Source of the DNA: Promethearchaeota archaeon
Lineage (GTDB): Archaea; Asgardarchaeota; Lokiarchaeia; Sigyniarchaeales; SOKP01
Length of the DNA stretch: 64,000 nt
Reading direction: 5' to 3'
NCBI GenBank assembly: GCA_030603385.1
Contig: JAUVXW010000006.1
Coordinates: 32,001-96,000, forward strand
The notes under the pieces were generated by a model. The model saw only the letters and a program-made list of their open reading frames with translations. It had not been told where the DNA came from and did not search any database. The position numbers and the translations under genes are program-made. Below are positions 60,487-63,586 of the stretch, piece after piece (the first letter of the stretch is position 1; each line of letters opens with the position of its first letter).

Positions 60487-62142
60487 ATGGCAGAATTTGA
60501 TAAAATTAAAGAAGATATGGAAGATTGGCAGAATTCTTATCCAACCAAAAAAGAGCGAAGAAAAAGTTTTAAAAATCTTTCTGATATAGAAATTAAACGT
60601 CTCTATACTCCAAATGATGTTAAAGAGCTTAATTATGAACTAGACTTAGGATTTCCCGGACAATATCCTTTTACTCGAGGAGCGTATCCTAATATGTATA
60701 GAGGCCGATTATGGACTATGAGACAATTTGCCGGTTTTGGAACTGCTGAACAGACTAACAACCGCTATAAATTCTTAATCGAACATGGTCAAACTGGATT
60801 AAGCGTTGCTTTTAGTTTGCACACAATTTATGGTATTGAAGCAACCGATCAAAAGGCTTTGGGAGAAATTGGAAAGGAAGGAGTGGCGATTGATACACTG
60901 AAAGATATGGAAACACTTTTTGATGGTATTGATCTATCGAAGATTAGTACATCCATGACTATTAATGCACCAGCGTCTATTTTATTAGCAATGTACATAG
61001 TGACTGCCGAAAAACAAGGCCATTCTCCTGAGCAATTGAGAGGGACTATTCAAAATGATATTTTAAAGGAATATATCGCGCAGAAGTCATGGATATATCC
61101 CCCAGAACCATCGATGCGTTTAATTGTGGACACGATAGAATACTGTACTAACCATGTTCCACAATGGTATACAATCAGTATAAGTGGATATCATATTCGA
61201 GAGGCGGGTTCAACTGCAGTTCAAGAGTTAGCCTTCACTTTGGCTGATGGTTTTGCTTATGTTGAAGCTGCAATCGAAAGAGGTTTGGATGTTGATGATT
61301 TTGCCCCTCGGTTGTCTTTTTTCTTTAATTCTCATAACAACTTCTTCGAAGAAGTATGTAAATATAGGGCTGCTAGAAGGATTTGGGCTAAACATATGAA
61401 AAATAAATACGGAGCAAAAAAGCCAGAATCCTTGAGACTACGATTCCATACTCAAACAGCGGGGGTTTCTTTAACTGCCCAAGAACCTGAAAATAATATG
61501 GTGAGAGTAACACTTCAGGGTTTAGCTGCTGTTTTAGGAGGGACTCAATCATTACACACGAATTCTTTTGATGAAGCTTTATGTCTTCCTACTGAAAATG
61601 CTGTAAAAATAGCATTAAGGACACAGCAAATCATCGCACACGAATCAGGAGTAACTGATACAGTTGATCCCTTAGCTGGATCTTATTATGTGGAATGGCT
61701 TACAAATAAGATGGAAGAAGAAGCTGAGAATTACTTTCAGCAGATTGATGAATTGGGAGGGGTTATTCCTGCAATAAAAGCCAACTTCTTTCAAAAGGAA
61801 ATAGCAAATGCCTCCTATAAATACCAACAAGAAATTGAGAACAGAGAAAGAACAATAGTCGCTGTAAACCAATATCAACAAAAAGAACCATGTACGATCC
61901 CTTTATTGAAAATTGATGAGGAAGTTGCGAAAGAACAGGTGAATACATTAAATAAAATAAAACAGGAACGAGATAACGATAAGATTCAAGAAAATCTATT
62001 AAAATTGAAAGAAGCCGCTAAAGGAACAGAAAACTTAATGCCTTATATTATGGATGCTATCAGAGTTTATGCCTCTATTGGAGAAATTATTAATACATTA
62101 AAAGAAGTATTTGGAGTATATTTTGAAGACTCGATTTTTTAA
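60487..62142 (+). CDS. B12-dependent acyl-CoA mutase large subunit, with isobutyryl-CoA-mutase-like specificity residues
   Basis: PGQYPFTRG, WTMRQFAGFG, GTIQNDILKEYIAQ, ISGYHIREAG, QSLHTNSFDE. Confidence 0.92.
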   Translation: MAEFDKIKEDMEDWQNSYPTKKERRKSFKNLSDIEIKRLYTPNDVKELNYELDLGFPGQYPFTRGAYPNMYRGRLWTMRQFAGFGTAEQTNNRYKFLIEHGQTGLSVAFSLHTIYGIEATDQKALGEIGKEGVAIDTLKDMETLFDGIDLSKISTSMTINAPASILLAMYIVTAEKQGHSPEQLRGTIQNDILKEYIAQKSWIYPPEPSMRLIVDTIEYCTNHVPQWYTISISGYHIREAGSTAVQELAFTLADGFAYVEAAIERGLDVDDFAPRLSFFFNSHNNFFEEVCKYRAARRIWAKHMKNKYGAKKPESLRLRFHTQTAGVSLTAQEPENNMVRVTLQGLAAVLGGTQSLHTNSFDEALCLPTENAVKIALRTQQIIAHESGVTDTVDPLAGSYYVEWLTNKMEEEAENYFQQIDELGGVIPAIKANFFQKEIANASYKYQQEIENRERTIVAVNQYQQKEPCTIPLLKIDEEVAKEQVNTLNKIKQERDNDKIQENLLKLKEAAKGTENLMPYIMDAIRVYASIGEIINTLKEVFGVYFEDSIF

Positions 62143-62156
62143 ATTGGTGAAATTAA

Positions 62157-62586
62157 ATGTCTAAAGATAAAATAATAAAGGTTCTTGTATGTAAGCCTGG
62201 GCTTGACGGGGGTTTTTAGAGCCTCCGGGCTTAACGGGCATGATAGAGGAGCCAAAGTTTTGGCTAGAGCTTTAAGAGATGCGGGAATGGAAGTTATTTA
62301 TACAGGTATCCATCAAACGCCTGATGACATCGTTAATACTGTCATCCAAGAAGATCCTGATGCAGTAATGTTAAGTATATTATCAGGATCTCATAATGCT
62401 CTTTGTCCTATTATTATGCAAAAACTTAAGGAACAAGGTATCGATGATGTCCTTGTAGCTGTTGGAGGTATTATCCCTGATGAAGATAAACCTTTCTTAG
62501 AGGAACAGGGTTTGAAGGGATTTTACGGACCAGGAACTAATTTGAGTACGATTGTTGAATTTGTGAAAAACAACTTAAAAAGATAA
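62157..62586 (+). CDS. Cobalamin-binding small subunit of acyl-CoA mutase, split by a 28-nt intron: join(62157..62205,62234..62586), 133 aa
   Basis: GGTGA RBS (62146-50), ATG 62157. Exon 1 MSKDKIIKVLVCKPGL(D) plus exon 2 GHDRGAKV...SILSGSH...VGGIIP...GPGT. The unspliced frame stops at TAG 62217-19. Confidence 0.88.
62206..62233 (+). other. Putative 28-nt BHB mRNA intron
   Basis: Complete hBHBh': outer helix GCCUG/CGGGC, central helix GGCU/GGCU, bulges UGA and UAA, 9-bp intron hairpin; canonical cuts remove exactly 28 nt and restore the frame and DGHDRG. Confidence 0.82.
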
Positions 62587-62593
62587 CAAAATA

Positions 62594-63586
62594 ATGGATT
62601 ACTCTGATTTAACTAAAAGCTTAATAAAAGGCAATACTCGTGCTGCGGCAAGGTTAATTACTATTGTAGAAAATGATATCGAAGCTGCTGAAGAAATAAT
62701 AAATTCTATTTATCAGTATACAGGTAAAGCCTATATTTTAGGTGTAACTGGATCACCTGGTAGTGGGAAAAGCACTTTTATTTCAACATTAACTAAGAGT
62801 TATATTGACTTAGGTAAGAAAGTTGGAATTATTTGTGTTGATCCGACGTCTCCTTTAACAGGAGGAGCATTATTAGGAGATAGGATTCGTATGAAACAAT
62901 ATTTTTCATTAGATAATGTTTTTATTAGAAGTATGGCAAATCGAGGACAATTGGGTGGGTTGGCGAGAGCAACTGAAGATGTAATCAAAATATTAGATGC
63001 TTATGGATGTGATATAATAATTGTTGAAACCGTCGGTGTTGGACAATCTGAGGTTGATATCTTTAAATCTGCTCACACGGTGGTGGTTTTAGTAGTTCCT
63101 GGATTAGGAGACGAAATTCAAGCAATTAAAGCAGGTATAATGGAAATTACTGATGTTTTCGTTGTTAACAAGATGGACTTGCCTGGAGCAGATAAAAAAG
63201 TGGCTGATATCATGCAGATGCTAGAATTTAAAAAGAGTTATAAATATGAATCTGAAGATATCAGTGATAAATTTGCCAAAATAAATCAATGGACACCAGA
63301 GATCACGAAAGTTAACTCAAAAACAGGAGAAAATTTTGATAAGCTACTCAAACTGATAAATAAACACAAAACCTTTTTACAAGATTCAGGAGTTATCTCA
63401 AATTATATGAAAAATCGAATTAAAAGCGAAACAATCCAGATTTTAAAATATAAATTAACCAAAAAAGCCGAAGAATTAATAAATTCTAATAATAAAATTG
63501 AGGAATTTATTGAAAAAGCAATTAAAAAGTCTTTGGATCCTTATTCTTTAGCGGGAGAAATTTTAAAACTCTTTTTTGAAAAATAG
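62594..63586 (+). CDS. meaB: MeaB/ArgK GTPase chaperone of B12 mutases
   Basis: GVTGSPGSGKST, VDPTSP, GGALLGDRIRM, ETVGVGQSE, NKMD. Confidence 0.95.
   Translation: MDYSDLTKSLIKGNTRAAARLITIVENDIEAAEEIINSIYQYTGKAYILGVTGSPGSGKSTFISTLTKSYIDLGKKVGIICVDPTSPLTGGALLGDRIRMKQYFSLDNVFIRSMANRGQLGGLARATEDVIKILDAYGCDIIIVETVGVGQSEVDIFKSAHTVVVLVVPGLGDEIQAIKAGIMEITDVFVVNKMDLPGADKKVADIMQMLEFKKSYKYESEDISDKFAKINQWTPEITKVNSKTGENFDKLLKLINKHKTFLQDSGVISNYMKNRIKSETIQILKYKLTKKAEELINSNNKIEEFIEKAIKKSLDPYSLAGEILKLFFEK

What the first reader, a model, noticed from the sequence alone, without database searches (positions are those of the whole stretch)
62195..62239. Complete bulge-helix-bulge mRNA intron (28 nt) interrupting the B12-binding motif of an acyl-CoA mutase small subunit
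Seen: after RBS GGTGA and ATG 62157 the frame reads KPGLDGGF-stop, while the rest of the protein (GHDRGAKV...) lies in the +1 frame. The RNA folds as outer helix G62195-G62199 : C62235-C62239, 4-bp central helix GGCU(62200-03) : GGCU(62228-31), 3-nt bulges UGA(62204-06) and UAA(62232-34), and a 9-bp intron hairpin (62207-15 : 62219-27). Known: the archaeal splicing endonuclease EndA cuts after the second nucleotide of each bulge. Applying that rule removes 62206-62233, restores the frame and rebuilds the conserved cobalamin-binding DxHxxG motif (GLDGHDRG). Archaeal mRNA introns of this kind are rarely documented (the crenarchaeal cbf5 intron is the classic case). Inference: this metabolic gene needs tRNA-type splicing to be expressed, conceptually like non-spliceosomal mRNA splicing in eukaryotes.
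Basis: partly seen in the sequence, partly recalled or inferred. Interest (0 to 1): 0.97.

Follow-up and report, generated by a model that had tools for sequence, protein, structure and literature searches.

The report
tRNA-type intron splits Asgard mutase gene
A 28-base insert shaped exactly like the introns that archaea cut out of tRNAs interrupts the vitamin-B12-binding subunit gene of an acyl-CoA mutase in an Asgard archaeon; seven related genomes keep such an insert at the same spot, so the message very probably has to be spliced, which papers describe inside an archaeal coding sequence for only one gene (cbf5).

Summary
Window 62195-62239 folds, as its minimum-energy structure, into a canonical helix-bulge-helix-bulge-helix motif. 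Removing 62206-62233 by the published cut rule joins MSKDKIIKVLVCKPGL to DGHDRGAKV and rebuilds the cobalamin-binding motif.

Comparative evidence supports a real, spliced intron:
- Eight of 104 family genomes with the ortholog carry a 26-, 28- or 32-nt insert at exactly this position.
- Sequences differ but structure is kept: 98.5% of cells pair and 8 of 17 pairs show compensatory double changes.
- Exon 2 is under strong purifying selection (dN/dS 0.02-0.04).
- The exon bases that form the motif are fixed only where the insert is present.
- The genome encodes alpha and beta EndA subunits and RtcB.

No RNA evidence could be obtained. The RNA contigs laid came from intron-less relatives.

The intron is patchy. 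Every carrier has a close intron-less sister, and a 98.6%-identical DNA contig lacks it. This points to rapid turnover or a segregating polymorphism, not a conserved regulatory device.

This scan has noted similar inserts in other Asgard protein genes, including a histone gene of this genome, which I partly re-checked. In the papers I could search, cbf5 is the only coding-sequence case.

Verdict: a new member of a known kind.

The parts
60487..62142 (+). Acyl-CoA mutase large (catalytic) subunit, first gene of the operon
   Evidence: PF01642, 6.5e-228. TIGR00641. It carries RQFAGF and KEYIAQK, which from my own knowledge of the family look isobutyryl-CoA-mutase-like.
62146..62150 (+). Shine-Dalgarno-like GGTGA ahead of exon 1
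   Evidence: Read directly in the sequence. A comparable purine-rich box precedes the ATG in the other intron-bearing loci.
62157..62205 (+). Exon 1: MSKDKIIKVLVCKPGL plus the first base (G) of the Asp codon
   Evidence: Translation. It is identical to residues 1-16 of the intron-less G019 ortholog. It corresponds to strand beta-1 and the start of the B12 loop in PDB 2yxb and 4r3u.
62195..62199 (+). Outer helix h, 5' strand (GCCUG), exonic
   Evidence: Pairs with 62235-62239 in the minimum-energy fold. 100% paired in 8 genomes.
62200..62203 (+). Central 4-bp helix H, 5' strand (GGCU), exonic
   Evidence: Pairs with 62228-62231. Compensatory variants are GACU:AGUU in G058 and GACU:GGUC in G090.
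62204..62206 (+). 5' bulge UGA; predicted cut between 62205 and 62206
   Evidence: Unpaired in the fold. Cut rule from PMC2738675.
62206..62233 (+). Intron, 28 nt, with an in-frame TAG at 62217-62219; length is not a multiple of three
   Evidence: Its removal restores the frame and the motif. Homologous inserts of 26 or 32 nt lie at the same site in 7 other genomes.
62207..62227 (+). Intron hairpin h' (9 bp, loop UUA)
   Evidence: Minimum-energy fold. 7 of its 8 modelled pairs show changes on both sides among 8 genomes.
62228..62231 (+). Central helix H, 3' strand (GGCU), intronic
62232..62234 (+). 3' bulge UAA; predicted cut between 62233 and 62234
62234..62586 (+). Exon 2: the last two bases of the Asp codon, then GHDRGAKV...NLKR and the stop
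   Evidence: PF02310, 3.8e-21. dN/dS is 0.02-0.04 among intron-bearing alleles.
62235..62239 (+). Outer helix h, 3' strand (CGGGC), exonic
62594..63586 (+). MeaB-type G-protein chaperone, third gene of the operon
   Evidence: PF03308, 4.2e-86.

Best explanation
The 28 nt at 62206-62233 are an archaeal bulge-helix-bulge (tRNA-type) intron inside the mRNA of the B12-binding small subunit of an acyl-CoA mutase (large subunit, small subunit, MeaB operon) of an Asgard archaeon.

Proposed mechanism:
1. In the transcript, exon bases 62195-62203 and 62235-62239 pair with each other and with the intron's 3' end. This forms two 3-nt bulges separated by a 4-bp helix, braced by a 9-bp intron hairpin.
2. 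The heterotetrameric splicing endonuclease (EndA alpha and beta, both encoded in this genome) cuts between the 2nd and 3rd nucleotide of each bulge.
3. RtcB joins the exons.
4. The joined message reads ...VCKPGL-D-GHDRGAKV..., splitting and then restoring the Asp codon (G|AC) of the DxHxxG cobalamin loop.
5. Unspliced RNA yields only a 20-residue peptide.

Shown versus inferred:
- Shown: the structure, its conservation with covariation, the restored frame, selection on the exons, and the presence of the enzymes.
- Inferred: the cleavage and ligation themselves.

The intron most likely has no function of its own. It looks like a tolerated passenger that is gained, lost or exchanged between alleles quickly.
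For: 1. Exact motif as the minimum-energy fold in the window and in G020, G011, G022, G045 and G067. G058 shows it with a slightly different intron hairpin. For G090 the motif is drawn by hand, because RNAfold left its central helix open.
2. A covariance model built on four of these inserts found the element only at this site. It occurs in 7 of 54 genomes of the genus and 1 genome of a second genus.
3. An independent protein screen agrees. Of 105 ortholog matches in 104 genomes of the family, exactly those 8 genomes have a match that starts at residue 14-15 instead of 1-5.
4. Covariation in the 8-sequence alignment: 98.5% of cells paired, 8 of 17 pairs with changes on both sides, 0 of 500 shuffles as good, and a collapse when the partners are slid.
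5. Insert lengths of 26, 28 and 32 nt all break the frame. The published cut rule restores GLDGHDRG in every case.
6. Exon 2 is under strong purifying selection, dN/dS 0.02-0.04 at dS above 1 in most pairs (lowest 0.76). Exon 1 (KIKVLVCKPGL) is conserved in a different frame.
7. In G045, G067 and G058 the exon-2 frame is closed by a stop a few codons upstream and has no start codon of its own.
8. Synonymous sites inside the exonic half of the motif are fixed only in carriers: AAG 8/8, GAC 8/8, GGG 8/8, CTN 8/8. In intron-less alleles the figures are 5/15, 2/15 (11 GAT, 2 Asn codons), 7/15 and 6/15.
9. The machinery is present. There is an EndA alpha subunit (198 aa, with Tyr, His and Lys at the places where I expect the catalytic residues, judged by eye), a beta-like subunit (200 aa) and RtcB. 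This matches the (alpha-beta)2 enzyme reported for Asgard archaea (PMC5829648).
10. The intron-less ortholog of G019 (99% identical) is exactly the predicted spliced protein and aligns with PDB 2yxb and 4r3u across the junction.
Against: - No spliced RNA was seen. The only RNA contigs covering the site (X15, X20) come from intron-less relatives (about 94% identity, AAACC.GGATTAGAT codons), so they say nothing either way.
- No read-level confirmation of this exact 28-nt allele was obtained. The one DNA contig laid across the site lacks it.
- The fold-energy z-score is modest, -2.1.
- RNAfold did not predict the central helix for G090.
Confidence: 0.86

Rival explanations
1. The splicing chemistry is the same, but the intron works as a switch. 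Splicing would be conditional and would gate production of the B12-binding subunit, and hence of the active mutase, in the manner of HAC1/XBP1.
For: - The intron sits in an essential motif, so unspliced RNA gives no functional subunit.
- The flanking large-subunit and MeaB genes are intact.
- A negative-regulator role was once proposed for the cbf5 intron (PMC2738675).
Against: - Only 8 of 104 genomes with the ortholog carry the intron.
- Every carrier has a close intron-less sister.
- A 98.6%-identical DNA contig lacks it.
- Apart from the strand that forms the central helix, the intron's sequence is not conserved; its structure is kept.
A regulatory device would be expected to be kept more consistently.
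Confidence: 0.1
2. The insert is an inactivating insertion, and the small-subunit gene is a pseudogene in this genome.
For: - The insert breaks the frame and brings a stop codon.
- A second, 46%-identical B12-binding subunit exists elsewhere in the genome.
- No spliced RNA was seen.
Against: - dN/dS is 0.02-0.04 among eight interrupted alleles at saturated dS.
- Exon 1 is conserved in its own frame.
- The insert keeps a precise structure through compensatory changes.
- The exonic pairing bases are fixed only in carriers.
Confidence: 0.03
3. The ribosome bypasses the insert by translational hopping from CUU 62202-04 to CUU 62230-32, as in phage T4 gene 60. Alternatively, exon 2 is translated on its own from TTG 62185.
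For: - In the window, matched Leu codons lie 28 nt apart with a hairpin between them.
- An in-frame TTG exists at 62185.
Against: - The matched codons are not conserved. They are CUA versus UUA in G058, and G090 has no Leu codon at the landing site.
- Other carriers have no start codon in the exon-2 frame.
- A product starting at TTG would lack strand beta-1, which is aligned in all solved homologs.
- The feature that is conserved is the bulge-helix-bulge geometry.
Confidence: 0.02

Closest known systems
cbf5 (pseudouridine synthase) pre-mRNA intron of Crenarchaeota (Watanabe 2002; Yoshinari 2006; Yokobori 2009, PMC2738675)
   Same: - A short bulge-helix-bulge intron inside a protein-coding sequence.
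- Predicted cuts between the 2nd and 3rd bulge residues.
- It lies between the 1st and 2nd letter of an Asp codon in an essential motif.
- The host has a heteromeric (alpha-beta)2 endonuclease.
- Its phylogenetic distribution shows lineage-specific presence and absence.
   Different: - A different gene: a metabolic B12-binding subunit rather than an RNA-modification enzyme.
- A different phylum: Asgard rather than Crenarchaeota.
- The motif here is strictly canonical (3-4-3 with long flanking helices), whereas most cbf5 introns are relaxed.
- The distribution is far patchier, 8 of 104 genomes with each carrier next to an intron-less sister. cbf5 was inferred to be ancestral to two orders with at least two losses.
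- Splicing of cbf5 was shown by cDNA and in vitro. Here it is inferred.
Archaeal tRNA and rRNA bulge-helix-bulge introns and processing stems (Marck and Grosjean 2003; Schwarz 2020, PMC7714728)
   Same: - The same hBHBh' geometry.
- The ligated exons form a 5-bp stem with a 7-nt loop, with the junction between loop positions 6 and 7. This is the geometry of a canonical 37/38 tRNA intron.
- The same enzymes are expected to act.
   Different: - The host RNA is an mRNA. The loop (GGCUUGA) has no U33 and there is no tRNA body.
- No other copy of the element exists in the genome.
- Weak model hits in tRNA-Val genes of two relatives are in a different register and look like chance.
HAC1/XBP1 unconventional mRNA splicing in eukaryotes (IRE1 cleavage; ligation by Trl1 in yeast or RtcB in animals); from my own knowledge
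   Same: - Non-spliceosomal, protein-catalysed excision of a short frame-changing intron from an mRNA.
- RtcB acts as the ligase in animals.
   Different: - The nuclease (IRE1) and its recognition motif (two stem-loops) are unrelated to EndA and its motif.
- HAC1/XBP1 splicing is a regulated stress switch. No regulation is indicated here.
EndA-cleaved mRNA 5' UTR in Haloferax volcanii (Schwarz 2020, PMC7714728)
   Same: An mRNA is a substrate of the tRNA splicing endonuclease.
   Different: That site lies outside the coding sequence, as I recall the paper; the passages I read say only that one additional mRNA is a substrate. Here the coding frame depends on removal.

Membership tests
Archaeal bulge-helix-bulge (EndA-type) intron | Two 3-nt bulges on opposite strands, separated by a 4-bp helix | tested here: met
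   - Minimum-energy fold of the window.
- The same fold in five other carriers, and in G058 with a slightly different hairpin.
- G090 fits when drawn by hand, although RNAfold leaves its central helix open.
Archaeal bulge-helix-bulge (EndA-type) intron | Flanking helices h (exon-exon) and h' (within the intron) | tested here: met
   5-bp outer helix and 8-9-bp intron hairpin. 100% and 96.9% of cells are paired across 8 genomes.
Archaeal bulge-helix-bulge (EndA-type) intron | Structure maintained by compensatory substitutions | tested here: met
   8 of 17 pairs changed on both sides, including one in the central helix. 0 of 500 shuffles reach the observed values.
Archaeal bulge-helix-bulge (EndA-type) intron | Cuts between the 2nd and 3rd bulge nucleotide give a functional joined RNA | tested here: met
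   In silico only. The join gives KPGL|DGHDRG in all 8 genomes. It equals the intron-less ortholog and aligns with solved structures.
Archaeal bulge-helix-bulge (EndA-type) intron | Host encodes the splicing endonuclease and an RNA ligase | tested here: met
   Two PF01974/PF02778 proteins (alpha and beta-like) and RtcB, PF01139 at 1.3e-167.
Archaeal bulge-helix-bulge (EndA-type) intron | Intron is absent from the mature RNA (spliced junction or excised circle observed) | tested here: inconclusive
   Three RNA runs were laid. Only two contigs reach the site, and both derive from intron-less relatives.
Archaeal bulge-helix-bulge (EndA-type) intron | Cleavage by purified EndA in vitro | not testable with these tools
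   Bench experiment.
Acyl-CoA mutase B12-binding small subunit (PF02310, TIGR00640) | Rossmann-like B12-binding domain with the DxHxxG loop after strand beta-1 | tested here: met
   - Exon 2 alone matches PF02310 positions 12-115.
- The joined sequence supplies beta-1 and the Asp.
- The natural equivalent P0002 matches TIGR00640 positions 3-128 at 1e-46 and PDB 2yxb at 1e-35.
Mobile (homing or repeated) intron | Multiple copies in the genome, or an encoded or adjacent endonuclease | tested here: not met
   Single copy in the genome by covariance model and by blastn. At 28 nt it has no coding capacity.

The most novel reading that the evidence does not exclude
The mini-intron is not a relic but is actively turning over. 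Intron-bearing and intron-less alleles would coexist within species and be exchanged by short-tract recombination. Alternatively, the intron would be re-inserted repeatedly into the same anticodon-arm-like mRNA hairpin by reversal of the EndA/RtcB reaction followed by copying back into DNA. That would make Asgard mRNA mini-introns a mobile or polymorphic class, relevant to how protein-gene introns spread before the spliceosome.
Probability: 0.15. Interest if true: 0.9.

Novelty: new member of a known kind. Interest (0 to 1): 0.75.

Why it matters
- **Literature gap.** In the papers I could search, protein-catalysed splicing of an archaeal coding sequence is documented for one gene, cbf5, in Crenarchaeota.
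- **What this adds.** A canonical, comparatively validated example in a metabolic enzyme gene of Asgard archaea, the closest known archaeal relatives of eukaryotes. It extends the phenomenon to a new phylum and a new gene class.
- **Annotation.** Gene callers will mis-annotate such genes as truncated or frameshifted.
- **Experimental value.** Natural intron-plus and intron-minus allele pairs at 4-10% divergence are ideal for testing the cost, the regulation and the gain-or-loss mechanism of such introns.
- **Link to eukaryotes.** The shared ligase RtcB invites comparison with XBP1-type splicing.

Tried and rejected
1. **RNA evidence.** One run search and one read-laying run. RNA runs X15 and X20 cover the site only with contigs from intron-less relatives, and X16 does not reach it. 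This gives no verdict on splicing.

2. **Genome-wide search for further intron-broken genes with my own strict scanner**.
- No enrichment over shifted-cut controls: 576 versus about 580, 48 versus 40-63, 1159 versus about 1140, 926 versus about 880.
- Every other short candidate I checked by eye lay inside a continuous open frame or in a nonsense frame.
- This is not evidence that the mutase intron is unique. The scanner misses AT-rich, relaxed motifs such as the histone insert.

3. **Origin by tandem duplication** (earlier notes). The direct repeat GGGCTTGACGGG / GGGCTTAACGGG is largely a by-product of the self-complementary GGCU helix. It is not kept in G058 or G090. The idea is not supported, though it is not excluded for the original event.

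4. **Derivation from a tRNA intron.** Weak model hits in tRNA-Val(GAC) genes of G057 and G054 are in another register and have E-values of 0.26-0.39. Rejected.

5. **Other copies in the genome.** None found.

6. **Transfer of the whole gene from genus g1 to explain the G090 carrier.** Rejected. G090 is sister to an intron-less genome of its own genus.

Full report
**What is there**

The window carries a three-gene operon:
- an acyl-CoA mutase large subunit (60487-62142; PF01642, TIGR00641)
- a B12-binding small subunit (62157-62586)
- a MeaB-type chaperone (62594-63586)

The small-subunit gene is broken. From ATG 62157, behind GGTGA, the frame reads MSKDKIIKVLVCKPGLDGGF-stop. The remaining 116 residues (GHDRGAKV...; PF02310, 3.8e-21) lie in another frame from 62236.

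- a 5-bp outer helix
- a 4-bp central helix
- two 3-nt bulges
- a 9-bp intron hairpin

**Is it more than chance?**

Fold energy alone is weak evidence (z = -2.1). The geometry is rare, though. I scanned both strands of the 3.9-Mb genome (31% G+C) for strict 3-4-3 motifs with at least 5 outer and 4 inner pairs that are also the local minimum-energy fold. There were nine. This one, at -23 kcal/mol, is about twice as stable as the next. Another of the nine looks like a canonical tRNA-Gly(UCC) intron, judged by eye. One of nine such sites falling exactly on a frame break, and repairing it, is not plausibly chance.

**Does the cut rule repair the gene?**

The published rule puts the cuts between the second and third residue of each bulge (PMC2738675). 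It removes 62206-62233 (28 nt) and joins ...CCT GGG CTT G to AC GGG CAT..., which reads KPGL-D-GHDRG.

The closest relative, G019, lacks the insert. Its gene encodes exactly this product (P0002, 99% identical over exon 2). That protein matches TIGR00640 at 1e-46. It aligns with the solved small subunits 2yxb and 4r3u from residue 7, straight across the junction (IKVLVCKPGLDGHDRGAKV against YKVLVAKMGLDGHDRGAKV). Exon 1 therefore encodes strand beta-1 and the first half of the cobalamin loop.

**Comparative evidence**

Orthologs in relatives showed inserts at the same position in G020, G011 and G022 (26 nt each), with different hairpin sequences. A covariance model built from the four sequences gave these results:
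- only this site in the own genome
- three more carriers in the genus: G045, G067 and G058
- one carrier in a second genus of the family: G090, 32 nt

An independent protein screen with the full-length intron-less protein agreed exactly. Among 105 ortholog matches in 104 of 135 family genomes, precisely these eight genomes have a match starting at residue 14-15. All others start at residue 1-5.

The 8-sequence alignment supports the structure:
- 98.5% of cells pair.
- 8 of 17 pairs have changes on both sides, including GGCU:GGCU changing to GACU:AGUU and to GACU:GGUC in the central helix.
- None of 500 shuffles reaches these values.
- Sliding the partners destroys the signal.

This alignment was fitted to the model, which favours the structure. 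However, separate folds of G000, G020, G011, G022, G045 and G067 give the same motif without any model, and G058 gives it with a slightly different hairpin.

All inserts (26, 28 or 32 nt) break the frame. In every case the rule restores GLDGHDRG.

**The interrupted genes are functional**

- Exon 2 of the seven carriers of genus g1 (G090 was not yet in hand) shows dN/dS of 0.02-0.04 at dS of about 0.8-3.8.
- Exon 1 is conserved (KIKVLVCKPGL) in its own frame, behind a start codon and a purine-rich box.
- In G045, G067 and G058 the exon-2 frame is closed a few codons upstream and has no start codon. Independent translation of exon 2 is therefore not an option there.
- The synonymous sites that form the exonic half of the motif are fixed in carriers: AAG, GAC, GGG and CTN, each 8/8. 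In intron-less alleles they are free: 5/15, 2/15 (11 GAT and 2 Asn codons), 7/15 and 6/15.
- Sister pairs differ more in these 17 bases than elsewhere: 24/102 against 259/2256. This last test treats sites as independent and is only indicative.

**Machinery and organism**

The genome encodes the following:
- an EndA alpha subunit (198 aa, with Tyr, His and Lys at the places where I expect the catalytic residues, judged by eye)
- a beta-like paralog (200 aa)
- RtcB

This fits the (alpha-beta)2 enzyme reported for Asgard archaea (PMC5829648). It also fits the link between heteromeric EndA and pre-mRNA introns (Yoshinari 2006, cited).

Relatives are titled Promethearchaeota or Hermodarchaeota MAGs. 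Holders of the sequence are cold-seep, marine-sediment and vent metagenomes. ARAGORN finds only 18 tRNAs, 7 of them with introns. This suggests heavily interrupted tRNA genes.

**RNA evidence**

None was obtained. Of the three RNA runs laid, X15 and X20 reach the site. Their contigs are about 94% identical and read AAACC.GGATTAGAT|GGGCAT, so they come from intron-less relatives. They show that the operon of relatives appears in RNA libraries and nothing more.

**Distribution**

On a tree of exon 2 plus downstream DNA, the eight carriers are scattered. Each is sister to an intron-less genome, at distances as low as 4-5% per branch. Eight changes are needed, and well-supported branches force at least seven.

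G090 groups with an intron-less genome of its own genus, so it did not receive the whole gene from genus g1.

DNA run X1 holds a 1,484-nt contig that is 98.6% identical and lacks the 28 nt. The gap was placed at 62197. That placement fits an allele reading AAGC|CCGGGCTTAACGGGC (Asn in place of Asp) better than the ligated-exon sequence. The contig's letters were not shown, so this is an inference.

Intron-less G053 has exactly the ligated-exon sequence GCCCGGGCTTGACGGGC.

Between the window and G019, substitutions cluster around the junction. The next 40 nt of exon 2 resemble other carriers (GGAGCC...) rather than G019 (GGTGCT...).

Together this suggests one of two things. Either losses are frequent and precise, or short-tract recombination exchanges intron-plus and intron-minus alleles. 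I could not separate the two.

The hairpin sequences are as diverged as saturated synonymous sites. This argues against a recent spread from one source. The element is single-copy.

**Mechanism and function**

The best-supported reading is excision by EndA and ligation by RtcB of a passenger intron. Several observations argue against a conserved regulatory role, although conditional splicing in carriers is not excluded:
- Only 8 of 104 genomes with the ortholog carry the intron.
- The intron appears to be polymorphic among near-identical strains.
- Only its structure is conserved.

Three alternatives conflict with the selection data, with the non-conserved 'landing' codons and with the conserved motif:
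- a pseudogene
- translational bypassing
- an internal start

**Comparison with the known**

The closest case is the cbf5 intron of Crenarchaeota.

Shared features:
- an intron of the same kind, though most cbf5 motifs are relaxed
- the same cut rule
- the same phase, between letters 1 and 2 of an Asp codon in an essential motif
- the same endonuclease architecture
- lineage-specific presence and absence

Differences:
- the gene and the phylum
- the strictly canonical motif here
- the much patchier distribution
- the lack of experimental proof here

Papers up to 2025 still cite cbf5 as the only mRNA case, plus a Haloferax mRNA substrate. I found no paper on a mutase intron or on Asgard mRNA introns.

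Earlier notes of this scan report similar mini-introns in other Asgard protein genes, including histone, alba and iorB genes of this same genome. I partly re-checked the histone:
- The Pfam match at contig C36:121025-121204 contains two TAA stops.
- The first stop lies in a 30-nt AT-rich bulge-helix-bulge-like insert.
- Removing that insert gives ...RRLMKHNGALIVARDAV....

My own strict scanners did not find these inserts, so they cannot be used to claim that the mutase intron is alone.

**Verdict**

It is a new member of a known kind: an archaeal bulge-helix-bulge pre-mRNA intron. It has an unusually clean structure, strong covariation support, and an informative presence/absence pattern. Splicing itself remains to be shown.

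Noticed in passing
L133:1500-1700 (own genome, contig C36:121025-121204, + strand): The Pfam match of a histone-fold gene (PF00808) contains two TAA stops. The first lies in a 30-nt AT-rich bulge-helix-bulge-like insert (central helix UGAA:UUCA). Removing it gives ...RRLMKHNGALIVARDAV.... So at least one other protein gene of this genome seems to carry such mini-introns.
   Followed up: partly
window 62197-62233, DNA run X1: A 1,484-nt metagenome contig, 98.6% identical to the window, lacks the 28 nt. The gap placement suggests that it reads KPGLNGHDRG (Asn in place of the DxHxxG Asp). This would be an intron presence/absence polymorphism among near-identical strains.
   Followed up: partly
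L008 (G012) and L018 (G024), about 15 nt upstream of position 1501: Two intron-less orthologs naturally read GLNGHDRG (AAT or AAC) instead of GLDGHDRG. The Asp of the cobalamin-loop motif is therefore not invariant in this family.
   Followed up: no
window 60487-62142: The large subunit has RQFAGF and KEYIAQK, and reads AFSLHT where, as I recall, the family usually has AFD(L/M)PT. This suggests isobutyryl-CoA-mutase-like rather than methylmalonyl-CoA-mutase specificity. Earlier notes say the same.
   Followed up: partly
L002 (own genome, contig C32:34583-34927): A second, intron-less B12-binding small subunit, 46% identical, with GHWRG in place of GHDRG. It is presumably the partner of another mutase.
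   Followed up: no
own genome, whole: ARAGORN detects only 18 tRNA genes, 7 of them with introns, in a genome that is 94% complete. Many tRNA genes are probably missed because they carry non-canonical or multiple introns.
   Followed up: no
L045:1468-1597 (G057) and L046:1446-1579 (G054): tRNA-Val(GAC) genes with two insertions of 31-37 nt each: one in the D-arm region and one in the anticodon loop. They surfaced as weak chance hits of the intron model.
   Followed up: partly
L010, L014, L016, L018, L043 (upstream of the small-subunit gene): In several genomes of the genus, AT-rich non-coding DNA precedes the small-subunit gene instead of the large-subunit gene. The operon order is therefore not fixed.
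   Followed up: no
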